NCBI GenBank assembly: GCA_905178155.1
Contig: CAJINV010000015.1
Span: 1,878,571-1,942,570, forward strand
Source of the DNA: Amoebophrya sp. A120
Lineage: Eukaryota > Protista > Dinoflagellata
DNA length: 64,000 bases
Reading direction: 5' to 3'
Shown here: piece after piece, positions 2,214 to 64,000 of the stretch
Numbering within the stretch: the stretch's first letter is position 1
Layout: every line of letters begins with the position of its first letter
Notes under the pieces: generated by a model
The model's database searches: none
Told to the model about the DNA's origin: nothing
What the model saw: the letters and a program-made list of their open reading frames with translations, nothing else
Translations under genes and position numbers: made by a program

Positions 2214-5200
2214 ATGGCCGACCTCCCGCTCCGCATCGGCTATTCGCAGCCGCGAAACTTCGCGCAATGCCAGCCGGTGTTACCGAGCAACGACCCAAGC
2301 GCCAGTTTGTACGAGCAGTCGGTGGAGAATTTGGACGACTTCTATCCAGGAAAAAACACCCATCCCCATCCACTTTTTGCATGACAAATAGTGGATTTTA
2401 TGCATGTTTTGCATGACAAATTGGATGGGGGTGGGTGTTTTTTCCGGGATAACTTCCGCACCGGTTTAGGCTCCATGATGTTCGCGTCGACGACGATGAC
2501 GAAGTCGAATTTTCTATCAAAAGAAAAAAGTTCGTCACGATCACTCATGGGCATTTTTGCAATACAAAATTGTCTGTCATGCGTAAAAATGCATCACAGA
2601 CACAGCCACACTTCATAAGGGATTTCCCTAGTGTTTCTGCAATACAAGCAGAAGTTGTGATGCTAAAAAAATTTGTAATGCAAAGCCTGCAACTTAGTGA
2701 CTGTGACAAACTTTATTTTTCTCTCCATATTTTCTCGGCGCCGGTGCTGCTGGGAATAAAAAGTCGAACTACAAATCTTCCGGAGGAGGTGGACACAGCA
2801 CCTCATCCAGCACTACAGCGTCGAAATCTTTACTGCAGCGACCAGCGACAGTAGACCACCAGGTGACAAGTGCCAGCGCAGCAAACAATAAAATCGACCT
2901 GGAGAGCGAGATCTATTCGCAACTTTTCGCGGAAACCGCAAGTGCATTTAACTCATCAAGGTCGAATAAAATGAGCAACAAGACTCGAGGAGGCGCAACA
3001 AGTAGTGTGAGGACCGCGTCAGAAACAGCTGCGACTAAGCGACCATCCACTTCTGCCGCCGACGGGGCAACGGAAACCACAAAAGGGAAGAAAAAGGCCA
3101 CCATCAACGCCCCACTACCGGAGTCAACATCGTCCTTGACAAAGGATTTGAGTCCGAGTTTCAAAAACACCGAGCCGTTTCGCTGCGACGCGAGGATCAC
3201 CTCGAGATCTACCTTCGACGAGTACTATCCTGTGCAAAAGTATCGCGCTCGTAGTAAAATTGCAGTCCTGCATTACAAATTCTTTTCGTAAGGTAAATCT
3301 GCACGACAGATTTCACTTCTCATGCTGTCTGAGGAAATTTGTAATGCATTTATACGAATGCGATACTTTTGCAATGCATAAGTACATCAAACAATCCAAC
3401 GAGGCGAAAAGACTCGGGATCTCCCGGAAGGAGGTCGAAATCGAGCAGAAACTGCGGAAGAAACTGACTTACATCCAGAAACAGCAACGGTTTGATTCCT
3501 TAGTCAAGTCCGACGGGACCTTCAAAAGACAAGTTTGGGCGTCCATGATCAAGGAGGGGTTGATCGGGTACAATAAGACGAGTAAAAAGGCGCAGGCGGA
3601 AATGGGGGCCAGAGACGCTCTATGCATTGCAAAAGTATCGCACTCGTATGAATTGCAACTATGCATGACAAACTAGTATGTTAATACTTGAATCAGCATT
3701 ACAAATTCCAACTTGAACTTTCTTCTTGAGAAAATTTATCATGCAATTTAATCGTAGTGCGATACTTTTGCCATGCATACGCGCAGTCTTTCCTCCAATT
3801 ACTCGTCCGGCGATTCGGCACCATCATGCGTGCGTGGCGGAACGGGTTAGATTTGGACGGGAACGGGAGGATTAGTTACTACGAGTTCTGCAAAGCGGCG
3901 AGGGCGATCGGGTACGAGTCGAGTTTGCGGCAGCTGTGGAATGATTTGAATGACAACGATGATAAAGCGTTCATCACGCTAGACGAGCTAGACGTGGACA
4001 CCTTCAACCGCATCAACTACTTCAACGACATTCTGACGAGGAACTTCAGTTCTTTGAAAGAGGCCTGGCTCTTCTTCGACATTGACAAGCAGAACCAAAT
4101 TTACGAGAAACAGTTCCGAATTGCGCTGGTATCCACAGTATAATTCCCGTACACGTACAAGTGCTGTCTCTCTCTCTGCATGGCAAAACTCGGCGTCGAT
4201 CGTAGTTTAGCATGACAAGTCTCGTCGCACTCCCGATTGGGGAAATTTGTCATGCGTCTTGTACATCAGGTGCGGGAAATTTGTATTGCATAGCTGGTGG
4301 ACAAGTTGAATTTCGACACGGCGAAGTACGTATCAAATGCAAAAATGTCTGGGTCTGGCAGAATGCAGATTTTTGTCATGCTGTTTTTGCATGACACAAA
4401 ATGTCTGTCATGGAAGCCCTAGCATCACAGATTTCGAGAAGCCTCCGCGTTGCTTAATCCGCATGACAAACGTCGCCCCATTTCGGTGACAGGAAATGGG
4501 CGGCTTTTGCTGTCTATGCATGAGAGATTTGTCTGTGTTGTGTTATTCGCATCACAAGTTCGCACCCTTCCAGACCCAGACATATTTGCAATGCATAGTA
4601 CGATTTGAAGAAACTGTATGAAGATCTGGACTACGACGGCAACGGGTTTTTGACCTTGGATGATTGGCTGTTCCTGAAGAAATGGGTGACCAGCAACGAC
4701 TGCAAAATGCTGGAGGAGTTCAGGAAGGTATAGATTCTTGTGTGTTTTGCGCATAGCAAACCGCCTTTTCCATGCACGGTTTTGCATGACAAATTCAAAA
4801 AATCACACAACCCCAGGTCCTCCGCTCGAAATATTTCAAGCCGACCGACGCGTTCTACAAAGTTTTCGATGTCAACAGGAACGGCTCCATCGACCCATTG
4901 GAGTTCGTTGAGGGGTGCAATAAGTTGAAACTGGAGAAACACATCACCGAGATTGCCATCAATCCAAGACGCCTCTTCGAACTCCTAGACGCCGACGAGT
5001 CGGGGGAGATTTCCGTTTCGGAGTTTATCAAACTTTTCACGGCTACCGAATCCTCGGAGAACAAAGTAACCGCGGTGGACGAGCACAACCCTCTGCCCGC
5101 GATCCAGAAGGAGATCCAGTCGAAATTCGGGTGTATTGTGGATTTGGAGGAACTGCAACAACCATTGAAAAAATCCTACCAGTTGTACGACGCGGTATTC

Positions 5201-7567
5201 CGCCGGTTGGAGGAAACGGAAAGAACAGATTTGCACGAGCTCATCAACTACCAGTGGACGGGGCCGGACGAGAGTTTGATGAGCAGAAAATCGAGGTCGA
5301 ATAATTTGTTCGCAGCTGACGGAACAAATAAGCCGACAGGAGAAAACAAAGAGCATGTCAGGAAGATCTACTCGGCTGACTCGATCCAAGACATCGCGGA
5401 TTTGGATTTGTTACTGCAACAGGCGGAGCTGGCGCAGGCGTTTTTGAAACGGGCTTTGTTGAAGGAAGAAGTGCTGAAAGAGAATGGGATAATGACAACA
5501 GTTAGTACAACGAGTGGAGCTGCAAGTAGAAGCAGCACTAAAACCTCCTCCAGTCCGGCCGACGACCCGTCAAAAAATTTCGACGCGCAGGAGTTCAAGA
5601 AGAAAATCGACCAGATTTGGCCGTCAAAGACGACAACGAAGTCTTCTTCTCTGCTCAAGTATGCACTGCAAAAGTATCGTAAAAGGTACAAATACATATA
5701 CAAATTTCCTCAGCATGGGAGCTGCATTTTGTCATGCTGTTTTACCATAAAAACAAGAGTTGTCATGCATAGTTGCAATTAGTACGAGTGTGATACTTGT
5801 TTTGCAATGCATATCAAGCACCCTTTTCAAGAAGCGTTTGATCCGGCGATAAAGTCGAAGAAGCGGTGCATCGAGAAAGCGAATTACAAATACGAAGCGA
5901 CGTTATCCACAGTAAATTTCCCGTACTCGTACAAGTGTGGTTTCTGCATGACAAAACTTGCGTGGCTACCGTTTTAAGGTTTAGAGAACGACAGGGACGC
6001 CCAGCCCTTAGCTTCCCAACATGACAAAACTTGCACTCAATCCTAGTCCAGCATGACAAGTTGGGCTCTGCAAGGTAGCGAAATTTGTCATGCATTTTGC
6101 ACATGTACAGGAAATTTACATTGCATAGACGTATGGGAAAGCGAATAAGTTCAGGCGGATTCGGGACGTCGCGAGGATTTCCCTGCACTTCAACAAATGT
6201 AGGGAATTGTTGTCCGCGTTGAAGTATGAATTGCAAAAGTATCGTACTATTATAAATTGCATTACAAATCTCCTCAGCGTGAGAAATAAAATTTGTAATG
6301 CGGTTTTAGCTAAGGAAGGCGATTTGTCATGCATGTCTGCAATTAGAACGAGTGCGATGCTTTTGCAGTGCATATGAAGCAATTAGACGAGTTCTACAAC
6401 GTGATCTCCATCGACAACCGGATGAAGTATCCGACGGCGCTGGGGTGGAGAGACTTCGCCGCGTTAGTGATGATTGAATTGCCGAGTGAAAACCAGAAGA
6501 GCCCCGAGATGAAGAAACACGTCTGCGAGATACAGTACAACTAAAGGGATGTGTTGATGTTTGCTGATGTCGAACGCTTTTTGTGATGCAACTTTTTGAG
6601 AAGAAAATAAAAATCTTGCCGTATGTTCTTCAACTGGCTGCGCCAGAACCTGTGATGCAAAAAATCTTATGATCCAAAGAAACCGACTTATCAGGCTCCA
6701 ACTGACTCCCTTTAACGTCGCGCGGAAGCAGGCCCACCAATACTACCGCACTTTGCGCGAGAAAATCCCGTCATTAGTCCAGTCGAAACAGGCCGACGCT
6801 TTGCAGGAGGCGATTCTCGACAGTCTGCAAGCCGTGCGGAAATCGGAATTCTGTTCCCACGTGACCGTTATGAATTGCAAGAGCATCGTACTAGTAGTAA
6901 TTGCATTACAAATTACCTCAGCATGACAAATGGAATTTGTCACGCTGTTTTACCTTGGGATGTAGATTTGTAATGCACAATTGCAATTACTACGAGTACG
7001 ATACTTTTGCACTGGATGACCGTCGGCGTCGATATGGACCGTTCGAAAGTGTGGACCCAGCCCTGGTACCAAAACCCACTGGTGTTGGAGGGCAGGGTCG
7101 GATCACGACGGGAAAAGATGAAGAACCAGAAAGCGCTGCAAGACCCGGAAAAAAGCGCGAATAACTCTCCGTTACTCAAAAACCAGTTCCCGAAGAGCAG
7201 ACCGGAACTCCCGATCGTTTCCATGCGGACCGATTGGATGCGGGGAAACATGCACGGATCCTTTCCGCCGCCGGTACCAGATCTACGGGATAACCGGCCG
7301 TGGCTCCCGGCGGGCGGGTTGTTGAACGGGTTGTTTACCAATTTGACCGCAAATCACGAGATGGAGGACTATGTCACGGAGGGGGAACGGAACAAAATGG
7401 TGGAGAAATTGGGAAATTCACCGCCGGGGAATAAACTGTCTGGGGGGAAGAAGGGCGGAAATGAAGTCCCCGTTGGCGAGGCGAATTTTGATGAAAGGGT
7501 GAAAATGTTGGAAAAATCTCGGAAGAATCACGAGAAGAGAAAGCGGGAGTACTTGCAGAGTCGGTGA
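2214..7567 (+). CDS. Multi-exon protein: several EF-hands followed by RelA/SpoT-like nucleotidyltransferase domain
   Basis: Continuous frame after removing 9 TIR introners, 2 GT-AG introns (4728-4816, 6535-6694) and one non-canonical intron (~2547-2736). EF loops DLDGNGRISYYE, DYDGNGFLTLDD, DVNRNGSIDPLE, DADESGEISVSE. Synthetase-like motifs IKSKKRCIEK, RDVARISL, GWRD, HVCEIQL, HQYY. Confidence 0.85.
2343..2451. mobile_element. Introner family A
   Basis: 30-bp TIR TATCCAGGAAAAAACACCC…; DR ACTTC/ACTTC. Confidence 0.95.
3226..3380. mobile_element. Introner family B
   Basis: TAT-N5-GCAAAAGTATCG…CGATACTTTTGC-N5-ATA; DR AGTAC/AGTAC. Confidence 0.95.
3621..3779. mobile_element. Introner family B
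   Basis: Family B TIR; DR CGCTC/CGCGC. Confidence 0.9.
4130..4292. mobile_element. Introner family C
   Basis: TATCCACAGTA…GGGAAATTTGTATTGCATA; DR GCTGG/GCTGG. Confidence 0.95.
4331..4597. mobile_element. Introner family D
   Basis: TIR containing TGTCTGGGTCTGG…CCAGACCCAGACA; DR GTACG/GTACG. Confidence 0.95.
5660..5813. mobile_element. Introner family B
   Basis: Family B TIR; DR TCAAG/TCAAG. Confidence 0.95.
5904..6127. mobile_element. Introner family C (long variant)
   Basis: Family C ends; DR GACGT/GACGT. Confidence 0.95.
6225..6374. mobile_element. Introner family B
   Basis: Family B TIR; DR TGAAG/TGAAG. Confidence 0.95.
6869..7018. mobile_element. Introner family B
   Basis: Family B TIR (right end ATG instead of ATA); DR ACCGT/ACCGT. 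Confidence 0.9.
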
Positions 7568-8572: not shown

Positions 8573-11500
8573 ATGGCGGGCAAAAAGTCCAGACACTCCT
8601 ACTCGGACTCCTCCGCGGGGGAATCGCGCAGGAGGACCGAACGCCGGCGAAAGCAGCATAACGCAATGCCTAAGCAACATGGGACAACGAGAAGTGACAA
8701 GGTCAAAGGCGAGCCTTCTGCTGGCGAAGATGTCCCCCGCCGCGAGAATAGTGCTCGTCCGTACAACGATGGCCTTAAACCGAGGCGGGAGCGAGATCTC
8801 GGCAATGACGATGGCGTGACGAAGGGGACGAGCTCGCCACGTGAGAAAAAGGAACAAAAGAAAAAAAAGTATAGTAAGTACCATAAAAGATTTTGATGTT
8901 GAGTTTTGCTCTCATCGGTGATGCGTGATGGTGATGGTGTGTGGTGAGTTGAATCAAATTTCTTAAAACTGAAAAACTACACACAGGAAAAATCGCCGCC
9001 ACAGTGGTCCAGATCAATCGCCCTCTTCGTCTCGCGCTTCAAGCTCGGCGCAAAAAAACGTCACTCGCTCGGAGCGCAGAACAAAGGAGAAAAAAGAAGA
9101 TGAGTTTGAGCGAAACTACAAGGTTCGACGTGGTGAGAGGAAGGGGCAATCGCAGGCTCCAACGCCGCGCACAAACCGGAAAAAAACTCCCCATCACAAG
9201 AGTGCCAACATCTCTGGTTCCGATGCTGCACTCGGAGATCGTGACAGGAGCCGGGGAATCGTACAACCAACTTCGGGATCTTCCTCTGCGGAATCGTACA
9301 ACCGTGTGGGCAAGAACACGGCTTTCATCCCGGATGGGTCTACTAGGGAGAAGGGGAAAAAGAACCACGTCTGGAAATTGACGCCAGAGGAACTGGAAAT
9401 ACAGCGGCAGGCCTTTGCAAAGCGGCCCGATCGCATGGTTGTTCCGCATTTGGCTGGTGCTGCTGCTGCTGCTGCTCCAAGAGCCCGCTGCTCATCTCAA
9501 TCGTCAAAGAAAGTGGAGCCACCAGATGTAGCTCCCGCAGCGGAGGAGGACGCAACTGCATCTCCGGGTGGAGCACCCACGGGCAGTCGCAGCACGAAAG
9601 ATGTAGACCCCGGAGGGAAAACTAAAAAGGAACGGAAGAAGGATGAAAAAAAGTCGAGAAGGCAAAAAGAAGAGCGGGTAGCTGGATCAAGCTCTAGGTC
9701 TAGGAGCCCCCGCGGCAGTCGAAACGGGTCCAATCCTCGACGTAACGCGAAACTTAAAGTTCCGAGCATAGCCTCCCGCAAAAGTCAAGCTGCTGACGCG
9801 ACTGGGCAAGAAGAACGTGACGACAGAGCAGCTAGTACTATGCGCCGAAGATCTCCTACTACAAATCGGCCTGCTGACAAGAAGAACGCTCCTGGAGTAG
9901 ATCCTGAGACCACTTTTGCTGGCGGCTTTCTTGGCAAATACGGTGAGGTGATTGGTTGCAGCTCCCTGACTACATCGTCGAGCGAAGAGGACGAACGTCG
10001 CAGGCGTGAAAAACGGCGGCGTGGCGAAGAACATGTTGACAAAGACGCCAAATTGGCAGGTTATCGCGAGCGCGATCACGAGATGAAATCCGGCTTTTCG
10101 AGAGAATCACGGCAAAGGCGATGTGATCGTTCTAGCACGGACGACGAGGTAATAAATGCAAGTACTCAATTGGTAGCAAGTCTTCGATGCAGTGAGGAGG
10201 AGCTGCTCGTTCCTTTCATCAGGCTATGGCTCGTATTAACTACGTATTGACCTTTGCATTTTCTAAATCGATTATTTTGCTTTTTATCCCTCTCTGGTGT
10301 GTCTTTGCTTCAGCAGTTCATCTTCGTGCTGACTTTTTATTGTCTTCAAATCTACACACAGTCACTCACCGTCAAGGATGAACTCCTCGTGGAACCTGCT
10401 GGTGCAAATGATCCTGCGCAAGAAAGCGCCGGCGTGGAGCAGCGAAACATTGCCGATACGCTTCAGAAGACCGCTACCGATCGTTCCAACGATGGAGGTC
10501 CGGTAGAAGACGGAAAATCCCAGTCAAAACTTGGTGGACCTCCGGGTGCCGTCGTGGCATCGTCTTCTACTGCACACCTCGAGCAGGAGACAAACCAGCT
10601 GGCAGAATCAGGAGATGAACAAGACGAGGCCGCAGATGAACCAGTCCGGCTCACCCTACCGGACAACGTTGCTAGCCAGCACGCCTGGTCTTTGGAAACT
10701 ACGAAAAATGCCCACTCGTTCCTGTTGCAAAACGAGGAGTGGCCAGACTTCCTGGAAAAACTCCACAGCGTGTCGTTCCCCCCAGTAGCTGCTACTCCGA
10801 CGACTGTTCAAGATCCGCACGAAAAAACACTGCTCGTTACCGACGATGCAGCCGAACAGGAACACGAGGATGAAGACGCTTCAAGGTCCTCGTCCGATAG
10901 TGCGTCGGTACTGTATCTGGCTCTGGCCCTCCAGAAACTTGCGGGACGGCTGGAGGCAGGCGTAGGCGTGACGCAATCTTCTTCGAAAAAGACCGGTCGC
11001 CGCTCTACCCCGGCACCCTCCAAGTTCATTCCGTTTCAACTGCGATCCATCATCACAGAAGCTGTGAAAAGACACGTTGTGCACCGTACCCCAATAGCGG
11101 TCGTTTCTCTCGCGGGAGAGGAATCAATATGCACTGCAAAAGTATCGTACTCGTAGTAATTGCCGGATGCATGACAAATCTCCTATCTTAGGTGAATCAG
11201 CATTGCAAGTTCTATTTTTCTTCTTGGAGAAATTTGTCATGCAATTCCCACTAGTTGTACGATACTTTTTCTTTTGCAATGCATAGTCCACAACTGAACC
11301 ACCGCTGACAACCTGGACAACCTGGAAAAAGCCGACTTTCTGCGAGTCGGTTCTACGACAGTGCACAACTCCCGCCCCTCCCCCTCATTTGTCATGCAAA
11401 ATACCGAGTCCACATCTTGCCTTGAAGGATTCGGCGCATGACAAGTTTTGGACGCCCAAACAGGACTACATTCCAGGTGCGGATTCATTGTCATGCAAAA

Positions 11501-14500
11501 GCTACACTTGTGGCATTGCTTCTGTTGCTGCTCATGCTATATAAATGAGGGGGAGGGCAAGTTGTGCACTCTCATAGATTCGTTCGGTGCTACACAAACA
11601 GCAGAAATTTATCGTTGAGCAGGAAAGCGAAACGTTTGGAAAGGAGCAGCACGCCCTGCTCGGCTGCGCCCACCACTGCAGCGAATCCGAATTGCAATTC
11701 TTTGCAGACGATTTGCCCGGGTTTGTGGTCTTCGTACTGACGTTGGCGAAAGTGGTCGAGGTGGAGCGGGTTTTGCTGCAGTTACGAAGGGAGGAAAGGG
11801 AGCTACTGGAGGAAGAGGAAGATGAATACGAGGAAGATCATGATCCGGAGATGGACGCTGCCAGCGGCCTTTTGGAAATCGCCGAGAAGGTGAGGAAAAA
11901 AATCCGCAGTGACAATTGGAAAAAGGGGCTGAAGACAAAACTGCTGGAGCGTCTGGAAACGATCTCGGCGAAAGATCTTTTGGTCGTTGGTGGAGGTTCA
12001 TCATCGTCGGCGTCAGTCAGCAAGAGATGCAATATCACTGTCAACTTATCGAAAAGCCCCTACATGTTGATCTTTCTCTCTCGTCTCGTCAAATCCACCC
12101 AGGGCTGCAACGTCGATCTGTTCGGTATGGCGTTCTCAAACGTTACATTCTCAGCTGTTACATGATCTGTCATGCAAGAACAGCAATAGTGAAAGAGGCA
12201 AGATTGCAGCTTTCGCATTACAGACTTTCCACAGATTATCATGCTGCTTAGCCCTTCGAAAATTTGTCACGCTAAGCACCTTGATCAAGTGGAGGCTGAT
12301 GGCAATCTTGCATGACAAATCCGTGTAACAGTTGAGAATGTAACAGTTGAGAGCGCCATACTCGGTTTGTTTTCAGAAATCGACCGGATTTGTGGAGAGA
12401 AACTCGATAAGGAATCCGACCGGGACATGGCAGAGTACGAACATGGAAAGGACCTGCAAATCCTCCTGGCTGTTTTGGCGGAGAAAAAAGCGGAGGCGGA
12501 GCGGAAGAAGCAGGAAGATGAGCTTCTTCGGTCTCTCCGGTCTGACGTGCAGCAGGCTGTGCAGCAAGCCGTCGCAGTGGATGGTCCGCGAAATAAACTT
12601 AAACTACACAGTCGCACTATGGATGAACGGGAAACGGGCGCGAGTGTTGTCGTGATCGGTGGCCGCGACCTGGCCATGGATGACAACTTCGGGGGACTGG
12701 GGGTGCGAGACAATCAAAGAAATTGCGCAACGCCACACAGCCACATGATGAACAATGACAGCCCCTATAGTTGTGCAGGTGTTCAAGATCATATGGTGTC
12801 TGGAAACTACGCTCGTCGCGCGGGTGCGCAAGTCCAGCTGGGAGACCAAAGCTTCGTCGTATTTTCGCCTCGCCCAACGTCTTCGCGAGACGTTTCCGTC
12901 GGGTCTACTTCGCGCCGCGATAGCCACCGAAACAAGCACATTGGCGCGAGGAGAGAGATTTTTGGCGGGCAGGAGGAAAGTGCAGGGCCAGATGATCTCC
13001 CTTCTAGTTCTAAGCATAACCTCCGGGTGGAACAGCAGCTACAGCTACTATCCCCGACAGCATCCGACTCCGACAGCAGTTTTTTACCGGTGTCGAAGGA
13101 GAAGGGGCGTTTAGGACGAGACAGAAAGACGGCACAACTCCGAGGACACGACTATCCACAGTAAATTTCCCGTACACGTACAAATGCAGTCTCTGCATGA
13201 CATAACTCGCCTTCAATCCTAGTCCAGCATGACAAGTTGGACTCTGCAAGGTAGCGAAATTTGTCATGCATTTTGTGCGTGTACAGGAAATTTACATTGC
13301 ATAACGACAATAACAATTCTTCTGGGCGAAGGTTACGCCAACATCGCGCAGAGCTGTACTCCAATCCCAGCGACGCTTGCTCGGACGGGGATGGTGGAGG
13401 TTTTTTCAACGACGCAAGTAGTCTTGACGAGGAGAAAGATCGTTCGCGTTCCCGAGATAACAGGATAAGAGCCGGACAAGTCAACAATAAAGGGTCGCTT
13501 TCTGGCACGAGGCGGAGAAGCGCAAGCTCGTTAGATGGTCGGAGCTCTTCGTCCTGCGAGGACCACGACAACAGACCAGCTTCGCCAGAGAGTAAATCTC
13601 GCGGAGTTTTTAGGTTTCTGCATCAGCACCTGCTCGACGAAATAAAAGACGAACAGAAAAAGAGAAGCTGTAGAAACAACAAGAAACGGACCAACGGCGC
13701 GGCTGCGGACGAGCAGGATGTGGATGCCAATTTAGCGCCGAAAAATAGAGATACACCTCTTCCGAGCACGCCTCCTAAGGACAAGAGTACTGCTCAACAA
13801 GATGAAGAGCAGCCAAGTACATCATCGCGATCGCCGGATATTAATCACGACAAAGCAGATGTCGTGTCTAGCTCGCCCAATAATTTGCAGAAGGTTCTTG
13901 ATCGGGCCCTTCTTTCGGCATCATCTCGTCTGGACGAGAGACGCGACGACGAGCAGCCCATCTCGGAGTCGGAGCTGAGGTTTGAAAATAAAAAGTCCAA
14001 GAAAAAAGAGGGTGAACAGTCGGTAGATCATACTCGGCACGAGGACACTGAGCGACGTATAATCCCCGCAGTGGACTACAAAAACCGAGTGGCGGGGTCG
14101 TGTGGAGACGTGTCAGAAGACAAAGAAGGCCAGAGCCAGAGCGGGTCCCGTAATATCGTGCATGCAGCTCTAGATAAGGATGACGCGGCTCGCATCACGG
14201 CAACAACTGCAGTTCCGTCACCGACACTGGACGAAAATAAGTTCCACGAGGCAGCGGACGATTTTATTTCAGCGAATGGGAATGCACTTCCACATGCGGC
14301 CTCCTGTGCTCGGCAGACCGAATATCAAGTCTCTGCAGAAGCACAAGGCGACGATGCGAAATCTTCGAATGGTGCATCGCCCCAAACTGCAAGAAGGGAG
14401 TGTAGCCGACCCGAGTCTCCTTTCGTGTGTAGTAAAACTCGTCGAAAAAAAGGAATTCCTTTTTGCCGATCGCCGCCCGGGCTGGGAAGTAGTAGTGCAC

Positions 14501-16467: not shown

Positions 16468-16932
16468 TCAAAGCAGCTTCTGCTATGTCAGCTTTTGATG
16501 CTATATTTTTTTGAGAGTCTTTGCTTTGACATTGTTGGCAGCGCCATTATACCGACCGCGATGCAGCAGGTTTGGCTGATATCCATGGAAAATAAGAATC
16601 TAAACTGCGCTATCGTGCACGAATCAGACTCTGATGATATGATGAACTATGATTCGTCTTCGCTTGTTCTCACGCAAGATGTAGATGCTATGCGCCACTA
16701 TTCTCATGGCAACCACATTCTTGATGGCACTCGTACCATTATATGATCCGTTTTTACACAATTTCCGATTCATCCGTGCGGAATTTCTATGAAATTGGCA
16801 GGAGCAGGTGCAGCCAGGAATGAGTAAACAAATTTGCCACGGTATTGCTCATTACTTCAGTGCAGTTTTGTTCCAGGATAGCTTGCCTCCCAGCCGAAGA
16901 GCCCTGGGATACCGAGCCAGATTTGCGACCAC

Positions 16933-39561: not shown

Positions 39562-39880
39562 AGATAGTGATGCTCCTGGTGTTTGAATTTATCATGTACT
39601 TACACCAGAGCTTCCTGCTTTTTGGAGACAACTTCACTATGCATATTCGACGGCCTCCGGCTCCTGGTCAAGTTATTTCAAAGCTGCAAACAAGTCAACC
39701 GAATAAAATTAAAAACATAAACCACGAACGTCTCTACAGGATACAAAACCCGGCACCTGACGAAAAAGCAAAGTGATATGCTGGAGGATCAGTTGTTTCT
39801 ACTAGCGAGAAGTCAAGTATTCTGAAAAGCAAAAAAACAAGAAGCAACTACGTCGCATGCTGCAGCGATTATGACGCACC

Positions 39881-52400: not shown

Positions 52401-53196
52401 CCGTTTTTTGGAAACAAGCCCAACCAACCATCCATCTGTCTGGATGGATGGACTTGGTCCCCGTTTTTTGGAAGCGCGAGCCATCCGCGTTTTTTGGAAA
52501 GAGTCCATCCAAACAGCGTTGTTTGGACATCCATCCTCGCGTTTCCAAAAAACGCGAGCCATCCACCCAAGAGTCGCCCGCAAGGTACACAACGCTAGCC
52601 GGCCGCGGGTTGCTTTGACTTTGATGGCCTGCTGCAGTCGTGTTTGCACTCAAAATGCCGCGGAGGTTCGCGACTATCTGCCTGACAGTTTGCCCATTCG
52701 TGCGCTCCCGGTACCCGTAATACCTGGTAGCGTTGATCTGTGTCAGGGTGGTTGCGGAGGCTCTTTCAGTGAAAGCGCCTCCGCCGCTGGTGCCAACGCT
52801 GCTGCCTCCCACCCCGTCGTTGCCTCCTCCGGCAGTTGGAGGCGGAGTGGGGGCCACGTTGTTCCCCTCTGTACCACTGGAAGTAGACCGCGCGTGGTTT
52901 TTATTAACCGCGACAATGAAGACTCCGGCCGTCGTAAGAAACGCGATGAGAACTATGGCCCAGAGTGGGAGACAGGGAGAACTGCGAGGAGACGGGTTCA
53001 AATGTTCGGATTGTTGCAGGAGGGTGTCATCAACTTCAGATCCTCCTGCATGACAAGATTTGGAATTCTTCGAGCCATCGCGGTTCTTCGAGCCATCGTG
53101 GTTTTGATGCTTTTGCTTTTCTCCACCCCGCCCCAACAAGAAAGGATCTTCGTCTGCATAGTACCGATGCTCTGCTAGAATCGTTGTTTGGGTCAT
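49479..53196 (-). CDS. SGNH/GDSL-type hydrolase, type II membrane-anchored, paralog 1 (1.6-kb insertion at the GDS motif; possibly a pseudogene)
   Basis: N-terminal TM, VYLAGDSW, VSGND, DNLHP; homologous to the two following copies. Confidence 0.7.
49628..49804. mobile_element. Introner family B (shared by the three SGNH paralogs)
   Basis: DR GATGT/GATGC; same site as 54795 and 59462. Confidence 0.85.
49950..50346. mobile_element. Introner family K (shared by the three SGNH paralogs)
   Basis: TAT-N6-GAAAAG…CTTTTCA-N5-ATA; DR TCCCG/TCCCA. Confidence 0.85.
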
Positions 53197-54645
53197 GATC
53201 GTGTTTTTGATTTTTTCTTCACTACCTCTGGGAAAAACCCAACAACATTCTAAATGCCTCGGAAAAGTTAAAGTTGAAGCTCTTGCTCTAGCTTCCCGCT
53301 TCTGAAATAAATGCACTGCCGGCGAGGTTTCCCAGTATGCTGCATTGATGTTGATCGTGAGCGCCATAAATTAATTAGCGAGTCAAAGAAATAGACGTCC
53401 TCCTGTGCCTTTCTTGGTATCTCTCAGCATTTTTTTTGCCATCCTCTCAGCATCTATATCCGACCATTGGTTTGCGTTTGAGTACTCATCATCTTCGTCA
53501 CCGAATGTCTACTGGATCAATCTCTAGAACAGATCTAGGCACTTCAGATTTGGGTCGCGACACTCTGACCGAATACTTCTAGAGCGGTTTTTATTTTCCG
53601 ATCCAAACTGGCCAAGCTCAACGCCTGGACGAGACCGTAGCCAGGTCGTGGTCGCTCCTACTACTGATCATCTTCCAGCAATAAGGAGCCTTCGCCCCAA
53701 CTCGATATCGCTCCAATAAAAACGACCTCGTGGCTCGTTCACGCTCAAAGGTAAGAACACATAGCAGGCCTTTATGAAGATGCTTTGTATCTTCACTTCA
53801 ATCATGAAGAGGAGGAGGAGGAGGACACCTCTATAGTCAGCTTCTAACTACTAAGCTACTCTCTTTTTTAAGCTAACCATAGGACATGTTTCTGAGGACG
53901 ACTAGCCGAGCTGGGGATAGGTTTTTATGGGTATGGGGTATGGGTATCTTTAAGAAATAGTCTTTTTTTATCATCCGCGCAGATGAATACTTACGCAACA
54001 AACCAAAACTTCTTTTCAGCGTGTCACATTTCCCGGTGATGTGGGGAAATCTCCAAAATGGACACGCATCATTTTTCTTGCGTTGTCAAAACAATCAAAC
54101 TGAATCTGAATACTAGCTGCTAGGAATCAACAGCTCACCTGCCAGAAGATTCAATTTGCTCACGTCTCCAAAAATAGTGATCTTTTTTGCACAAGATGCG
54201 CGAAGCTCTCTGAGCAGCAGAGCGAGAGCCCCGACAACCGGCGCGCTGTATCTTTTACCGATACTTACGTAAATAAACCGTAATTATACACGATTAGAAA
54301 AATAACCTAAATCATACAATTTAGAAAGCTCTACAAGTACTCCATACACGGGGACGGGTAAGTTGTGGAAGATCATTATACAAGAATTGCTCCTCCCCTT
54401 GTTCAGTCGAACCAAGACGAACGCAGAAAACCTAGCTCCATAATCAAAACATTTCTTCTTGTTTATCAGTCTTCACCTTTGCCTTTCTTGAAACATCACT
54501 CAATGAATACAATACCTAGGAAAAATCCAACTTTGTGTGTTAGTGTTAGTGTTAGAACATGTACATGGCACAGCCCGTAGCTGTCCGCTCAAATAAATCT
54601 TATCCCTGCTCAAATGTAGTTTAACAAATGACAAGATTTCAATGT

Positions 54646-57170
54646 CTACGGTGGAGAAGTGGTGATGTGATCGTACAGCTTTCTGGCCAAAACCTCACTC
54701 CCGCGCGAATTCGGATGCAAATTGTCGTGCTGGTTGTACAGGTCGGGCGTCTCGTCTCCGCGCAGCACGTCATTGGTAGTCAGTGTCGTGACGCTATGCA
54801 TTGCAAAAGTATCGCTATCGTGCTAGCAGTCGTGGCTGTTGCATAATTTTCGCCAAATTTATTTCTCCAGTTCCTGAAGGGCTACCAGTTTGTACGTGCG
54901 GAAGTACTTACCGATGAAAAAGGACAAGGAGTAGGGCTGTCATGCAACGTTGATGCAATAATTAGTACGAGCCCGATAGAATTACTTTTACTTTTGCAGA
55001 GGATAGATGCGGATCCCTTGCAATTCGGGGTTTCCATTCTGAATTTCGTTCAGTGTATCGGTCAACACCGGAAAACCTTCGCGGAGCAAGCTGAGATAGA
55101 ATTGGTTTACAATGTAGGTCCCGGTCGAGGCCAGAAACGTGCTCCCGTATAAAGTTGAAAAGTGCTCCCACCACAGAGTGTGGAAGTGTTATTCTTGTTT
55201 GCTCCGCAAATTATGCAAACATAACTGCCAAAGCCAACACAAACATCTCCCACATTCTTGCACGCACCAGAGAGTGCGGACCAATTTGCAAGCCGAAGTA
55301 GCGCTGAAAGTCTGTGATCTGTGCTGCATAGCGCCACAGCGTCAACGATGTCTGTCATGTTGAAGTTGAGTCTGCATAAATGGCTTAGATAGTGATAAGT
55401 ACTTACCAATAAATGCGTCGCATTCATCACTTTACGGAATACAGAAAGAAGTTTCCGTGTCAAAAAATTGCAACGCGAGCTACTGCTATTTGGTCTTCTC
55501 GTGGTCGTGGTGGGGGGGCACTTTTCATTCTAATATCCCGACCGCGTTGGCGATGTGGCCTCGAAAGTAGCCTGCGCGCGTCCTAGGAAGCGAGAGGACG
55601 ATGATGTCCTTCGGTTTTTTCTTCTCGGTCAAAAACTTCAGATACCTCGGAAAATTTTCCCGCCACAGAGTCCGGTATGCGTCGATGAATTCTCGCTTTA
55701 AAGATCCACCCAAAAGTCCGCTGATGATCGCTTGCCGGCTTTTCCCCAGGAGAACTTGCTGCAAGATACTTTGGTGTAAGTCATTGCCCGAGACGTGCAC
55801 CACAATGCGGTCGTGCTCCGTCACGGTGTCCCGAATCGCGACGTCGTTTGCGGGGTTGTTTGGACCGCCTGGGACGGAGCGGTCTCTCAGCGTAGAGCCC
55901 GCTTGCGCAGCCATCACGCATTGGGTGGAGCTGGAGTCTCCAGCCGTGCTGTCGTGGAACAGTTTCGACAGGTAATACATGATGTCCGGCTTCAGGTACG
56001 GCATAAACTTGTCGTATGTATTCGGTAGCTTGTTCTGCATTTTGTCGTTTGCAGTATCCACAAACGGCGAGACATCCATCCAAGAGTCGCCCGCAAGGTA
56101 CACGATGCGAGCCGTATTTGATGGCGCGTTTGCATTCAATATACCGCGGAGGTTCGCGACGATCTGCCTTATCAAGTGCAAAAGTGTCTGGGTCTGGAAG
56201 ATTCTGAGACTTGTCATGCAAGTTTTGCATGGCCGTCCATGATGTCGGTCGTGATTTTTGCCCTAGCATCAGAGATTTTTGGAGGGCTTCTGGATCATGC
56301 CTATTCCGCGCGACAAATGCCCTCTACTTCCCGTAGCAAAAATTGCATTCCCTTTGCTGCTCATGCAATACAGATTTTCATTTTTTTGAAAACCAAATGC
56401 AGCTGCAGCATCACAAGTTGCATTCTTCCAGAGGACCCAGACACTTTTACATTTGATATGCCTTACGGTTTGCCCATTCGTGCGCTCGTGCGCGTAGTAC
56501 TGGGCGGCGTCGATATGTGTGGGGGTGAAAGCGCCATTGCCCCCGCCGTTGCCTTTGCCATTAGATATGGATGTGTCAGAGTTGAAATCGACAAAGTTGA
56601 AATAACTTGTAATGCATAAGATGGATACCAGTTGGAGGCCCAACTTCGAAGCGGCGCACGACAAATTTCAGTAGAGCCGAAATCCAGTTTGTAATACTGT
56701 TCCGGTAAGCGTAAGGAAGACGCCTCTTGTCATGCTACTTTAGCAGCTCTATTTCTAACTACCCCGAAACAGGCTTACAGTCTGGTCCTTTTGCCTACTC
56801 TGCAAGACAGGCACTTTCTGCGTTGTATTTTATGCATGATATCATCAAACTATAATTTCAACTTTGACGATTTCAATCCTGACAGTTCCATAGTAGACCG
56901 CGCATGATTAACCGCGACAATGACTCCCGCCGTCGCACCCGCCACAGCGCCGAGGGACAGAAACGCGATGAGCACAATGGCCCAGATCGGGAGACAGGGG
57001 GAACTGCGACCAGAGGATTCGTTAAATTGTTCGGATTGTGGCACGCGGGTGTCATCAACTTCAGCTCCTCCTGCATGGTAAGTTTTCGACTTTTCTTCAT
57101 CCCGTCCCAGTAAGAGAGGATCTTCCTCTGCATACGACCGAGGCACTGCTGGAATTGTGTTTCCGGTCAT
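54646..57170 (-). CDS. SGNH/GDSL-type hydrolase, type II membrane-anchored, paralog 2
   Basis: Intact frame after removing 4 introners; blocks GDS, AGST, SGND, DNLHP. Confidence 0.85.
54795..55005. mobile_element. Introner family B (shared)
   Basis: DR GACGC/GATGC. Confidence 0.85.
55148..55535. mobile_element. Introner family K (shared)
   Basis: DR TCCCG/TCCCG. Confidence 0.9.
56170..56458. mobile_element. Introner family D, paralog-2 specific
   Basis: DR TGCCT/TGCCT; single TGCCT at empty sites ~52679 and ~60988. Confidence 0.95.
56566..56892. mobile_element. Introner family J, paralog-2 specific
   Basis: ~38-bp TIR TATGGA…GTTGAAATCGACAAAGTTGAAAT; DR TTAGA/GTAGA. Confidence 0.9.
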
Positions 57171-59312
57171 CGTGTTTTTGTTTTTGATTTTGATTTTGTC
57201 TTCACTTCCTCGCCGGGTCAAAAGTGAATAGCGTGTGCGCTCCTTCAGGTGAACGGGAAAAATGATAAGAGAAATACAATATATAATAAGCCTAGAGAAG
57301 TAAACTATAACCTAGGCACTTAGCTGAACGAGTACAATTCTTCTTTTGAAGTTTTTGCTTCGGGAAAGCAGGAGTTGGAGTTCTAGCTTCGTTCCTGCTA
57401 GTATAAAAATGCACGCAAGATGAAGTGGTCAAAACTATAAATAGAGGCTCTTTGCTATTCTACGATACTAGCTGCTGCTGTACAAGAAACTACTACTTAG
57501 GCTGATGTTCTACCGTGGTCAAAAGAGGCGGACGCGGACTGTGCCACTGCTATTCACATTTTTCTTGTACACGATCAAATGTCCTCCGGCTCGCTTTTGG
57601 GCAAGCATACACTTCTACATTGGGTTCTTTCAACGTTTTGATGCGACTTCTTCGTAATGAAAAATTCTCGAAAGAAATGATCTTGCTCAGAAACAGAGCT
57701 GATGTGCGCTCCTTCTAACTTTGTTGCAAGGTGAACTAGAGCGCACCAATGATCCAGTGAACTTCTACGTCAAGCCTTTCAAGATCATGAAGAACGTTTG
57801 CAGATGAGCTTCGTCTTGGTTCTTTATTTGGATCTGCGAGACAGAGCGATGATGAAGCGGATCTGTTCTGGATCTTCACAGGCGAGTATGACTGCCGTCA
57901 GTTCTGTTTTTGACAGATTTGAATACAGGGACAGCCACAGTCGTAGTGTGATGAGTTGTAGTTGATCTTCCTTCAGTAGTTCATGTGATCATGCCAAGGA
58001 CAGCACGCGGAATGGAAGAGCGCGTCTGTCCTCGCTGTTTCTGAAAACAAATACCACGCCGTCCTCCACACAGCCGCAGGGCACAGGACAATGTCAGACA
58101 GAGGGTCCTCGTCAACCATTTTTTGTCTTTTTCATGCGTTTCCCCTCCTCTTAGTATCTAACTATATCTTCCGGCCATTGGTTTGAGTAATATTCATCAC
58201 CGAATGTCTACTGGATCAATCTCTAGAGCAGATCTAGGCACTTCAGATTTGGGTCGCGACACTCTGGCCGAATACTTCCAGAGCGGTTCTTTTTTCCCGA
58301 TCCAAAATGGGCGAGCTCGACGCCTGGAGACCGTAGCCAGGTCGTGGTCGCTGCTACTACTGGTCATCTTCCTGCAATAAGGAGCCTTCGTATCGCTCCA
58401 AAAAAAACAATCTCGCGGCTCGCTCACGCTCAAAAGTATAGAACACATAACAGGCCTTTATGAAGATGCTTTCTATCATCTAAAGAAATAGCTCTTTTCT
58501 TCACCCGCGCAAATGAATACGCAACAAACCAAAACTTCTTTTTAGCGTGTCACATTTCCCGGTGATGTGGGGAAATCTCCAAAATGGACACGCATCATGT
58601 TTCTTGCGCTGTCAAAACAGTCAAACTGAATCTGAACCCTAAGTAGCTGCTAGGAATCAACAGCCCTGCCAGAAGATTCAATTTGCTCAAGTCTCCAAAA
58701 ATAGTGATCTTTTTTGCACAAGATGCGCGAAGCTCTCCGAGGACCAGAGCGAGAGCCCCGACAACCGGCGCGTTGTATCTTTTACCGATACTTACGTAAA
58801 TAAACCGTAATGATACACGATTAGAAAAACCTAAATCATACAATTATAACCGCTCTACAATTATACACGGGAGGTAAGTAGAAGATCATCATACAATAAT
58901 TGCTCCTCTTCGCCATCGGTTTCCTCGCCCGCCAGCGGCGTAAGTAAATTTTTAAGCTCGTCCTTCAGCGCCGCGCTTATCGCGTTGTCCTCCGAATCGG
59001 GTCGGCGGTTTTGCGTGTACCGCTCGACCTTCTTCCGCCACTTTCTCCCGTCCTGGGTGGTGTAGAGCGTGGCGTCGGTCGCATCTTCCGACCGAAACAA
59101 GACGAAAGCAGAAGACCTAGCTCCATACAACATTTCTTCTTGTTTATCCGTCTTCACCTTTCTTGAAACATCACTCAATACCTCGGAAAAATCCAACTTT
59201 GTGTTTTAGTGTTAGTGCTGTTAGTGTTAGAACATGGCACAGCCCGTAGCTGTTCTCTCAAAATCTTTATTCCTCCTCAAATGTAGTGTAACAAATGATA
59301 AGATTTCAATTT

Positions 59313-61862
59313 CTACGGTGTAGAAGTGATTATGTGATCGTACAGCTTTCTGGCCAAAACCTCACTCCCGCGCCAATTCGGATGCAAATTGTCGTGCTGG
59401 TTATAGAGGTCGGGCGTCTCGTCTCCGCGGAGCACGTCATTGGTAGTCAATGTCGTGACGTTATGCATTTTTGCAAAAGTATCGCTATCGTGCTCGAAGT
59501 CGTGGTAATTGCATACATAATTTTCGCCAAATTTATTTCTCCAGTTCTTGAAGGGCTGAATTTGTACGTGCGGAACTACCGATGAAAAAGAACAAGGAGT
59601 AGAGTTGTCATGCAAGGTTGATGCAACAATGAGTACGAGCCCGATAATGCAACTTTTGCAGAGGATAGATGCGGATCCCTTGCAACTCGGGGTTTCCATT
59701 CTGAATTTCGCGCAGTGTATCCCTCATCACCGGAAAACCTTCGCGGAGCAAGCTGAGATAGAAAGCGTTCACACGCGACGTCCCGAACGTGGTCAGACGC
59801 CCGTTCCCGCCGTATCAAATTGAAAAGTGCTCCCACCACAGAGTGTGAAAGTGTTATTCTTGTTTGCTCCGCAAATCCAAATTATGCAACAATAACTGCA
59901 TCAAAACAAACATCTCCCACATTCTTGCACGCACAAGAGAGTGCGGAGCAATTTGAAATCTGAAGTAGCGATGAAAGTCTGTCTGTGCTGGACAGCGCCA
60001 CAGGCACACCATAAACGCTGTCGGTCATGTTGAGTCAGCATAAATGGCCTAGATAGAAGTGATACTTACCAATAAATGCGTCGCATTCACTTTACGGAAT
60101 ACGGAAAGAAGTTTCCGTGTCAAAAAATAGCAACGCAAGGGCAAGCTGTTTGGTCGTCTCGTGGTCGTTACGGGAGGGTGCGCTTTTCATTCTCATATCC
60201 CGACCAGGTTGGCGACGTGGCCTCGAAAGTAGCCTGCGCGCGTCCTAGGAAGGGACAGGACGATGATCTCCCGCGGTTTTTTCCTCTCGGTCAAAAATAT
60301 GCATTGCAAAAGTATCGTACTAGTATAAATCGCAATACAAATTGCCTCAGCATTAGAAATGGAATTTGTGATGCTGTTTTACATTAGGAAGAAGATTTGT
60401 CATGCATATTTGCAATTACTACGAGTTCGAGTGCGATACTTTTGCACAGGATAAAAAACTTCAGATACCTCGGGAAATTTTCCCGCCACAGAGTCCGGTA
60501 TGCATTGATGATTTGTCGCTTCAAAGATCCACTGCCCCATTCTCCGGCGATCTGCGACCAACTTTTACCCTGGAGAACTTGCTGCAAGATACTTTGGTGT
60601 AAGTCATTGCCCGAGACATGCACCACGATGCGGTCGTGCTCCGTCAGGGTGTCCCGTATCGCGACGTCGTTTGCGGGGTTGTTTGGACCGCCTGGGACGG
60701 AGCGGTCTCTCAGCGTTGAGCCCGCTTGCGCGGCCATGACACATTGGGTGGAGCTGGCATCTCCAGCCGTGCTGTCGTGGAAGAGTTTCGACAGGTAATA
60801 CATGATGTCCGGCTTCAGGTACGGCATAAACTTGTCGTACGTATTCGGGAGCTTGTTCTGCATTTTGTCGTTTGCAGTATCCACAAATGGCGAGACATCC
60901 ATCCAAGAGTCGCCCGCAAGGTACACGATGCGAGCCGTATTTGATGGCGCGTTTGCATTCAAAATACCGCGAAGGTTTGCGACGATCTGCCTTACGGTTT
61001 GCCCATTCGTGCGCTCGGGCTCGTAGTACCGGTCGGCGTTGATCTGTGTGGGGGTGAAAGCGCCATCGCCCCCGTTGCCTCCATTGTTGTCTCCGCTGGT
61101 GCCTCCGCCATTGCCTCCGCCATTGCCTCCGCCATTGCCTCCGCCATTGCCTCCGCCATTGCCTCCGCCATTGCCTCCGCCATTGCCTCCGCCGGTGCCT
61201 CCGCCGGTGCCTCCGCCATTGCCTCCGCCGGTGCCTCCGCCATTGCCTCCACCATTGCCTCCGCCACTACCTCCGCCGGTGCCTCCACCATTGCCTCCGC
61301 CGGTGCCTCCGCCATTGCCTCCGCCGGTGCCTCCACCATTGCCTCCGCCGGTGCCTCCGCCGGTGCCTCCGCCGGTGCCTCCGCCGGTGCCTCCGCCGGT
61401 GCCTCCGCCGGTGCCTCCGCCGGTGCCTCCGCCGGTGCCTCCGCCGGTGCCTCCGCCGGTGCCTCCGCCGGTGCCTCCGCCGGTGCCTCCGCCGGTGCCT
61501 CCGCCGGTGCCAACGCCGGTGCCAACGCCGGTGCCTCCCCCCCCGTCATTGCCTCCTCCGGCAGATGGAGGCGGAGCGGGGACGTTGTTCCCTTCTGTAC
61601 CACTCCGCGCGTGGTTAACCGCGACAATCACTCCCGCCGTCGTACCCGCCACAGCGCCGAGGGAGAGAAACGCGATCAGCAGTATGGCCCAGAGTGGGAG
61701 ACAGGGGGAACTGCGAGCGGAGGGGTTCAGTTGTTCGGTCTCAGCAGCTTCACCAGGTCCTCCTGCATGGTAAGTTTTCGACTTTTCTTCATCCCGTCCC
61801 CGTAAGAGAGGATCTTCCTCTGCATACGACCGAGGCACTGCTGGAAGTGTTTTTCCGGTCAT
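59313..61862 (-). CDS. SGNH/GDSL-type hydrolase, type II membrane-anchored, paralog 3 with long Gly-rich stalk
   Basis: Intact frame after removing 3 introners; blocks GDS, AGST, SGND, DNLHP; ends …HIITSTP*. Confidence 0.85.
59462..59667. mobile_element. Introner family B (shared)
   Basis: DR GACGT/GATGC. Confidence 0.85.
59813..60197. mobile_element. Introner family K (shared)
   Basis: DR CGCCG/TCCCG. Confidence 0.85.
60298..60453. mobile_element. Introner family B, paralog-3 specific
   Basis: DR AAAAA/AAAAA; single AAAAA at empty sites ~50448 and ~55631. Confidence 0.95.
61098..61540 (-). repeat. Coding 12-bp tandem repeat (GGGT/GGGN)
   Basis: More than 30 units of GCCTCCGCC(GGT/ATT) on +. 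Confidence 0.95.
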
Positions 61863-63551: not shown

Positions 63552-64000
63552 TATGCATTGCAAATATGTCTGGGTCTGGAAACTTGTGATGCACGTTAGT
63601 CATATAGCAAATGCACAGCACTGTAATGCGCGGCCAAGCATGACAACGTTTTTTTGTGCTTCTGTGCTACGTATTCCGCATGAGAAACTGCGTTTTTGCA
63701 TGACAGGGAAGAGGAGCGCTTCGCGGCCACGCAATACAGAGCCAGGAGTCATGGTGCCAGAACAGCATGTATCCTGTGCAAAAGTATCGCACTCGTATTG
63801 CAATCGTCGTTCGTTCGTTGTGGATCGGCTCTGCCGACCGGGTAACCCAACGCCTTACATATAAATGACCGACTTAGGCGAACCCCGTTGCGGGCATACA
63901 AATTGGCCGTACGGAAGGGCCCTAAGCGCTACATACATAGTTCACCCTAAGCGCCTACCACTTCGGTCTGGGACCTCGTCTACCTGATCCTGGGGGTCCA
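63552..64000. mobile_element. Family D introner with nested family B introner (63770) and a third insertion (~63807), truncated by window end
   Basis: 63552-63769 is a reverse-complement relative of 37341-37596; family B TIR starts 63770 and breaks into CGTTCGTTCGTT plus unrelated sequence. Confidence 0.85.

What the first reader, a model, noticed from the sequence alone, without database searches (positions are those of the whole stretch)
2379..63710. One internal motif, GCAT(G/T/C)ACAAA(T), is shared by all introner families and by some ordinary introns
Seen: GCATGACAAA, GCATTACAAAT, GCATCACAAAT and their reverse complements occur several times, in both orientations, inside elements whose TIRs are unrelated, and are rare in exons. 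They also occur in TIR-less introns (2547-2736, GT-AG introns 4728-4816, 6535-6694, 47266-47405). Inference: a common binding site for the transposase or for a splicing factor/guide RNA, and a marker that those plain introns are decayed introners.
Basis: partly seen in the sequence, partly recalled or inferred. Interest (0 to 1): 0.8.

Follow-up and report, generated by a model that had tools for sequence, protein, structure and literature searches.

The report
Shared helix-phased binding sites in introners
Nearly all of the small jumping elements that form this protist's introns carry the same 11-letter motif at DNA-helix-turn spacing, likely a docking site for one shared transposition protein rather than a splicing signal, since spliced introns can lack it.

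Summary
The motif is real. GCAT(G/T/C)ACAAA occurs 61 times (0.6 expected), all inside introns or elements, none in the other 51 kb. The host elements have TAT…ATA ends and 5-bp target duplications, match published Amoebophrya A120 introners, and are spliced in RNA contigs.

In a second assembly, all 15 multi-copy families carry the motif, though their interiors do not align once motif and ends are masked. New here is a spacing rule: same-strand copies lie 30–32 bp apart in 14 of 15 families, and the outermost outward-facing site lies 39–41, 49–51 or 61–62 bp from the end. These are steps of one DNA helical turn.

The splicing-factor or guide-RNA reading fails. There is no strand bias and no fixed distance to the 3′ end. 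Spliced introns exist with only antisense sites or none, and 29 of 37 predicted plain introns lack it. Sites decay in paralogous copies (small sample).

Best reading: DNA sites for one shared transposition protein, like Ac/Ds1 or CACTA subterminal repeats; sites in plain introns are relics. The protein was not found, and a host factor or partial host selection is not excluded. The 'TIR-less' intron 2547–2736 is a full element (2515–2729).

The parts
2343..2451 (+). Introner, long TIR, TSD ACTTC; two sense motif sites 32 bp apart (2379, 2411)
   Evidence: removal keeps gene 2214-7567 open
2515..2729 (+).
   Evidence: RNA contig resumes at 2729
3226..7018 (+). Eight further TAT..ATA introners (3226, 3621, 4130, 4331, 5660, 5904, 6225, 6869), 2-7 internal sites each
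   Evidence: RNA contig piece lengths match their removal
4728..4816 (+). GT-AG intron with one perfect site at 4784; probable relic of the 2343-type family
   Evidence: (E 1.7e-4)
6535..6694 (+). GT-AG intron with two antisense sites and no family match
11128..13303 (+). Four introners (11128, 11354, 12126, 13153) with 3-4 internal sites each
16377..16551 (+). Element with a well-kept TIR but no site (best score 6.3); splicing not shown
17253..18618 (+). Three older elements (17253-17432, 18053-18367, 18446-18618) with 1-3 sites
22342..22450 (+). Inverted copy of the 2343 family: both sites antisense to the gene, yet spliced
   Evidence: table 8 (22334|22449 in X3, X4, X5)
22568..33412 (+). 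Introners 22568, 23827, 28059, 29231, 30483, 33157 with 3-6 sites each, and GT-AG intron 26537-26687 with one weak site
37341..40935 (+). Intron-dense gene: introners 37341, 37663, 38115, 38881, 39099, 40170, 40373, 40717; GT-AG introns 38411-38825 and 39303-39468 (one antisense site each)
   Evidence: RNA joints; sites
39551..39739 (+). Spliced GT-AG intron with no site (control)
39776..40130 (+). Spliced non-canonical intron, N+TAT..ATA+4, with no site (best score 2.3)
   Evidence: unambiguous RNA joint
44806..47810 (-). Introners 44806, 45008, 45379-45749, 45782, 46118-47203 (with nested insert), 47537, with sites
47266..47405 (-). GT-AG intron with one sense and one antisense site; needed for an open frame; no RNA laid here
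49628..60197 (-). Two old insertions shared by three paralogues (49628/54795/59462 and 49950/55148/59813); sites decayed in the second and third copies
56170..60453 (-). Young insertions 56170-56458 and 60298-60453 with empty sites in paralogues; also 56566-56892
63552..63769 (-). Truncated element with 4 internal sites, followed by the start of another element

Best explanation
The motif is likely a double-stranded-DNA binding site for one protein of the transposition machinery shared by all these introner families, and spliced introns here do not need it. Shown: the elements are 110-400 bp, end in TAT..ATA, make 5-bp target duplications, and are cut out of RNA as one base + element + four bases. 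Shown: their interiors share the motif but do not otherwise align across families, and the motif sits in either orientation with one-helical-turn phasing to its neighbours and to the element end. Inferred: a transposase or its DNA-binding partner, supplied in trans and probably integrase-like, binds pairs of sites on one face of the helix and assembles the complex that cuts the ends. Inferred: copying selects for sites and spacing while filler drifts, which produces many 'unrelated' families. Inferred: after insertion the sites decay, the ends direct splicing, and some old copies end up as GT-AG introns that keep relic sites.
For: Enrichment. No cross-family similarity at E<0.01 once motif and 25-nt ends are masked (15 majority sequences against 11 family profiles). 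Same-strand spacing of 30-32 bp in 14 of 15 families; the best of any 3-bp window in 3000 randomisations was 9. Copies not holding the search pattern peak at 31/32/33 bp (93/67/39 pairs). The modal outermost outward site lies at 39-41, 49-51 or 61-62 bp in 20 of 21 family ends; 0 of 5000 randomisations were as phased at period 10.5. A second weak contact, TGC, lies 9-11 bp upstream in 34 of 80 sites. No strand bias: 87/80, 322/358 in young elements and 18/29 in orphan sites. Spliced without sense sites or without any site. Core columns are more conserved than other interior columns in 11 of 11 families, more so on internal than terminal branches (ratio 0.33 vs 0.45, p=3e-4). Site density falls with TSD decay (rho -0.55, n=47). 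Paralogues: core 10/56 vs other 71/480 substitutions. Empty sites show DNA insertion with a 5-bp TSD. PMC12130899 reports an A120 TIR family with integrase-related ORFs; its dataset row reads 'Ginger, 5-bp TSD, TA/TA termini'.
Against: No transposase or autonomous element was found, so the binder is unidentified, and PMC7789003 reports no transposase in A120. Inward-facing first sites are not significantly phased (n=9). Period 16 also fits the pair distances and periods 9-12 fit the end offsets, so the period is only loosely fixed. The terminal-branch ratio is 0.45, not 1. The core ages more slowly (+0.047) than TIR or other conserved columns (+0.08), though like all non-core interior columns together (+0.040). 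Some TIR-less introns keep site pairs 31-32 bp apart (L073 7509/7541, L076 5446/5477; L017 and L020 were picked by the search). The paralogue test rests on three pairs from two old insertions and one near-identical pair. Families may share a distant ancestor, so they are not fully independent.
Confidence: 0.62

Rival explanations
1. A host-encoded sequence-specific DNA-binding protein binds the sites. It would act as a cofactor for several transposases, mark the element in chromatin so that it is spliced co-transcriptionally, or both. That would explain why families with different ends converge on one motif.
For: One motif across unalignable families. Orientation independence and helical phasing fit any dsDNA binder. 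There is residual constraint on terminal branches and in aged copies. Intact 31-32 bp pairs survive in some TIR-less introns. U1 snRNA was not detected in Amoebophrya (PMC7789003).
Against: The motif is almost absent from intergenic DNA and exons, so such a host factor would have no ordinary targets. Well-represented spliced introns lack it, as do 29 of 37 predicted plain introns. Paralogues lose sites at the background rate. Phasing is to the transposon end.
Confidence: 0.2
2. The motif is an RNA-level splicing signal: an extended branch point (its TnAC core resembles the yUnAy consensus, recalled) or the target of a splicing factor or guide RNA.
For: It is confined to introns. In 4728-4816 the A lies 27 nt from the 3' end. 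62 of 163 sites pair with another site in predicted folds.
Against: No strand bias in young, old or orphan sites. Distance to the 3' end is 27-227 nt. 22342-22450 is spliced with no sense site, and 39776-40130 and 39551-39739 with no site at all. 14 introns flagged as RNA-supported have no predicted site-site duplex.
Confidence: 0.06
3. The motif is a functionless leftover inherited from one ancestral element.
For: All families share TAT ends and 5-bp TSDs, so common ancestry is plausible.
Against: The motif and its spacing persist while the filler is unalignable. Core columns are conserved above background in every family tested and change least on internal branches.
Confidence: 0.04
4. The sites serve mobility through an RNA intermediate, such as packaging or reverse splicing of the excised intron.
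For: The elements are excised precisely from RNA, and no transposase was found.
Against: Elements insert in both orientations with a uniform 5-bp TSD (26 of 48 exact; 6-8 bp: 0). The intron ends (one base before TAT, four after ATA) differ from the element ends. Spacing peaks at 31-32 bp, which fits B-DNA.
Confidence: 0.04

Closest known systems
Amoebophrya sp. A120 introner elements (PMC7789003; PMC12130899)
   Same: IRs start TAT, then seven variable bases and an A-run; short direct repeats at the borders; NT-type 5' splice ends; many families of 150-350 bp. The window's assignment to this organism is inferred from these features and was not returned by a tool.
   Different: In the passages and supplement text I saw, neither paper describes a shared internal motif or spacing rule. 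PMC7789003 argues against general transposase-mediated mobilisation in A120.
Subterminal transposase-binding repeats: maize Ac/Ds1 AAACGG (PMC3260210) and CACTA TnpA sites (PMC2613891)
   Same: Short repeated sites inside the ends, shared by non-autonomous elements that have little other homology. In CACTA a separate element-encoded protein binds them.
   Different: Different superfamily (5-bp TSD, TAT..ATA). Sites are spread through the whole short element with strict one-turn phasing. The elements are routinely spliced as introns. Binding is not shown here.
IS3EU/GingerRoot integrase-like DNA transposons (PMC10045372, PMC6839031, PMC12730594)
   Same: TA..TA (TAY..RTA) termini; A120 family 38 has integrase-related ORFs, TA/TA ends and a 5-bp TSD.
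   Different: TSD is 5 bp, not 6 bp; TIRs are about 20-30 bp, not 100-150 bp; no transposase seen here; 'subterminal' has no occurrence in the GingerRoot paper.

Membership tests
Amoebophrya A120-type introner | IR starts TAT, 7 variable nt, then an A-run | tested here: met
   Family-weighted end profile: TAT about 100%, A 0.69-0.90 at positions 11-15; some families deviate
Amoebophrya A120-type introner | 3-5 nt direct repeat at the borders | tested here: met
   Exact 5-bp TSD in 26 of 48 window elements; empty sites in paralogues
Amoebophrya A120-type introner | Removed from RNA with non-canonical ends | tested here: met
   Joints in contigs of runs guessed to be RNA, one study; frames open after removal
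Subterminal transposase-binding repeat (Ac/Ds1, CACTA type) | Several copies per element, both orientations, near the ends | tested here: met
Subterminal transposase-binding repeat (Ac/Ds1, CACTA type) | Shared by non-autonomous elements with unrelated filler | tested here: met
Subterminal transposase-binding repeat (Ac/Ds1, CACTA type) | Bound by an element-encoded protein and needed for transposition | not testable with these tools
   No autonomous element found; the conservation pattern is only consistent with it
IS3EU/GingerRoot | TA..TA termini | tested here: met
IS3EU/GingerRoot | 6-bp TSD | tested here: not met
   6-bp exact TSD in 0 of 48 window elements; TSD is 5 bp
IS3EU/GingerRoot | Integrase-like DDE transposase | tested here: inconclusive
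   None in 18 window ORFs or in the long elements inspected; the genome is not held
Spliceosomal branch point | Sense strand only | tested here: not met
   87/80; 18/29 orphan sites; 7/7 in plain introns
Spliceosomal branch point | Restricted distance upstream of the 3' splice site | tested here: not met
   27-227 nt
Spliceosomal branch point | Present in essentially all introns | tested here: not met
   8 of 37 predicted plain introns; absent from two RNA-confirmed introns
Guide-RNA or snRNA target | Complementary small RNA in the species | not testable with these tools
   No Rfam hit in the window; the published snRNA alignments are figures, of which only legends were seen

The most novel reading that the evidence does not exclude
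One sequence-specific DNA-binding protein, host-encoded or domesticated from the transposon, reads these phased sites on chromatin. It both mobilises the elements and flags them for the U1-less spliceosome during transcription, so introns would be defined by a DNA code, with old introns released only as other signals take over.
Probability: 0.12. Interest if true: 0.88.

Novelty: new variant of a known kind. Interest (0 to 1): 0.56.

Why it matters
How tens of thousands of Amoebophrya introners spread is open: the genome paper found no transposase in A120 and about 1,950 apparently separate families. A single motif with strict helical phasing suggests these families are one system served by one protein. 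It supplies a bait for pull-down, a signature for finding the autonomous element, and a motif-plus-spacing marker for dating plain introns as ex-transposons. It also separates the signals for moving (internal sites) from those for splicing (ends), which bears on how transposons become introns.

Tried and rejected
Whole-genome analysis was not possible: no genome is held, and the contigs behind the fetched loci could not be searched for an integrase family.

Search for the mobiliser: Pfam on 18 window ORFs gave only EF-hands in one host gene. Of six long TAT..ATA candidates, four were inspected and were short elements with nested inserts, without long ORFs in the three translated.

Other lineages: a tandem-motif scan gave 1 viral hit and 18 metagenome loci outside the main assembly; on inspection these were tandem repeats or chance matches without convincing introner ends. 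TIR patterns gave 0 hits in viral and prokaryote contigs. Rfam gave 0 hits in the window.

The first read-laying run included a DNA-like run that swamped the joint table, so gene 2214-7567 rests on contig piece lengths. The 2026 raw-read run matched only one element end. No listed holder was on record as RNA.

The idea that every TIR holds a degenerate motif copy at +3 was rejected: it holds for two of 15 families only. A motif-motif RNA duplex requirement was rejected.

My first class for 18102-18356 (TIR-less) was wrong and was corrected; it was counted as TIR-less. The boundary used for the 45379 element was off by a few bases, so the far end of that translation is unreliable.

Two look-ups of earlier scan findings returned nothing.

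Full report
1. Observation. GCAT[GTC]ACAAA occurs 61 times in the window against 0.60 expected, maximum 3 in 100 shuffles. All 61 fall in 12.7 kb of introns and elements and none in the other 51.3 kb. The refined profile is W-GCA(T/A)(G/T/C)ACA(A/G)(A/G)T. After the correction, 46 of 50 TAT..ATA elements and 5 of 9 GT-AG introns hold the 8-mer core. Part of the window list was curated near motif clusters, which is why the motif-blind check in section 3 matters.

2. The host elements. They are mostly 110-400 bp, end in TAT..ATA, and have 5-bp target duplications: exact in 26 of 48, with no exact 6-8 bp duplication. Paralogous genes show empty sites for 56170-56458 and 60298-60453. Contigs of runs guessed to be RNA (one study) skip them. 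Joints are listed across 22-41 kb, and piece lengths match exactly for gene 2214-7567. Two unambiguous joints, 39776-40130 and 40716-40939, fix the rule: intron = one base + TAT..ATA + four bases. Applying it opens the frames of all genes tried. These features match the published Amoebophrya A120 introners (PMC7789003), so that organism is inferred, not shown.

3. A larger sample. 122 come from one assembly that carries the same families at about 67-94% identity; it may be the same strain, so it is not an independent organism. Elements called by ends and TSD alone numbered 369. Of the 261 that do not hold the search pattern, 253 have a site, and all 15 multi-copy families do. With motif and 25-nt ends masked, no family majority sequence matches another family's profile at E<0.01 (15 against 11).

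4. Same-strand sites lie 30-32 bp apart in 14 of 15 families; the best window in 3000 randomisations reached 9 (two of these families and parts of others were enriched by the search pattern). The window alone, before any search, gave 7.45 against 1.42, 0 of 2000 (spacing window chosen after inspection). Copies not holding the pattern peak at 31, 32 and 33 bp. Convergent pairs cluster at 41-42 and divergent pairs at 38-42. The outermost outward-facing site lies 39-41, 49-51 or 61-62 bp from the terminus in 20 of 21 family ends (0 of 5000 at period 10.5). Inward-facing sites (n=9) are not significantly phased, and periods of 9-12 bp all fit. A weak TGC lies 9-11 bp upstream in 34 of 80 sites. 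This geometry is what a protein binding one face of B-DNA would impose (inference).

5. Not a splicing signal. Sense/antisense counts are 87/80 in the window, and 322/358 in young elements and 18/29 in orphan sites of the loci, with 577 sites undetermined. The last sense site lies 27-227 nt from the 3' end. Element 22342-22450 has only antisense sites and is spliced; 39776-40130 and 39551-39739 have no site and are spliced. A motif-blind gene parser recovered the six RNA-supported GT-AG introns in the two window stretches tested, along with false ones outside genes. It gave 69 filtered introns in the loci. Of the 37 with no family match, no nesting and no search pattern, 8 have a site (about 3 expected; 6 vs 0.55 at a stricter score), split 7 sense and 7 antisense. 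So plain introns with the motif are a minority and look like relics. 4728-4816 weakly matches the 2343-type family (E 1.7e-4); 6535-6694 matches nothing.

6. Selection and decay. Core columns are more conserved than other interior columns in 11 of 11 families. Changes avoid the core more on internal than on terminal branches (0.33 vs 0.45, p=3e-4). Site density drops as TSDs decay (rho -0.55). In paralogues with intact frames the core changes as fast as the filler (10/56 vs 71/480; alignments). The 55148 and 59813 copies have no strong site, and each carries stops in all three frames if retained; no RNA was laid there. Against a purely neutral afterlife: the terminal ratio is not 1, aged copies lose core more slowly than TIR columns (+0.047 vs +0.08; all non-core interior +0.040), and a few TIR-less introns keep pairs 31-32 bp apart.

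7. Mechanism. Shown: insertion with a 5-bp TSD, excision from RNA by the end rule, phased orientation-free sites, and their dispensability in some spliced introns. Inferred (0.62): a shared transposase or its partner binds the sites and assembles on the ends; copying preserves sites and spacing while filler drifts; sites decay after insertion. Main rival (0.2): the binder is a host protein, possibly with a part in marking introns. The protein was not found.

8. Comparison. It works like Ac/Ds1 AAACGG repeats (PMC3260210) and CACTA TnpA sites (PMC2613891). The ends resemble IS3EU/GingerRoot (PMC10045372, PMC6839031, PMC12730594), but the 6-bp TSD test fails, so it is not filed there. An A120 TIR family with integrase-related ORFs, TA/TA ends and a 5-bp TSD is on record (PMC12130899) and is the best lead; its sequence was not seen, so whether it carries the motif is unknown.

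9. Novelty. The introners are known. I found no description of the internal motif or its spacing. Searches: (motif string plus 'introner': 0 papers); supplement text of PMC7789003 and files 1-12 of PMC12130899 (files 13-14 not searched). Figures could not be seen, and subscription papers are not covered.

What I saw of each paper. PMC7789003: abstract, passages, sections 11-12, supplement part 3 and supplement search hits. PMC12130899: passages, supplement search hits, and file 8 parts 15-16 and single rows. PMC10045372, PMC3260210, PMC12730594, PMC6839031, PMC2613891, PMC11282704: passages only. The branch-point consensus, the helical repeat of DNA and the Helitron end rules are recalled.

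10. Verdict. A real and apparently unreported cis-code in a known introner system. It is most likely a transposition signal and not a splicing one, and it makes the search for the mobilising protein directly testable. Interest 0.56; new variant of a known kind.

Noticed in passing
window 46146-47078; L011 ~780-1566; L045 ~3554-4415: A 0.8-0.9 kb GC-rich repeat, about 77% identical between copies, sits inside introners of three different families in 3 of 3 copies seen. On the minus strand the two locus copies start TC and all end CTGG with a short hairpin, like a non-autonomous Helitron (end rules recalled).
   Followed up: partly
L030 ~3822 and L015 ~6772: The same foreign sequence starts right at the 3' end of a motif copy in two loci (86% over 44 bp). 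In L015 ~1290 another insert ends in a CAT-repeat tail that runs into a motif-like site. Secondary elements may target the motif.
   Followed up: partly
window 39776-40130 and 40716-40939: Unambiguous RNA joints show splicing one base before TAT and four bases after ATA even when the TSD has diverged, so the +2 base of the intron is always T.
   Followed up: yes
window 41250-43400: AT-rich stretch with 104-124 bp direct repeats at its right end; three ORFs gave no Pfam match; possibly a decayed mobile element.
   Followed up: partly
window 49400-61800: Three tandem paralogous genes on the minus strand with shared and copy-specific introners; the third has a long Gly/Thr/Asn repeat; the ORFs tested gave no Pfam match.
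   Followed up: partly
L067 1-2962: Intron-dense conserved gene on the minus strand (looks like glutamine synthetase by eye, not tested) in which many introns, including TIR-less ones, carry motif sites.
   Followed up: no
window 4331-4362: Raw RNA reads of run X9 match only this element end and continue into a different sequence holding a reverse motif copy, so a related element is present in RNA of another sample.
   Followed up: no
window 20777-22588: Element 22342-22450 is in frame and stop-free in the gene's reading frame, yet it is spliced out.
   Followed up: yes
window 2214-7567: Twelve introns interrupt a 1102-codon gene with EF-hand domains.
   Followed up: partly
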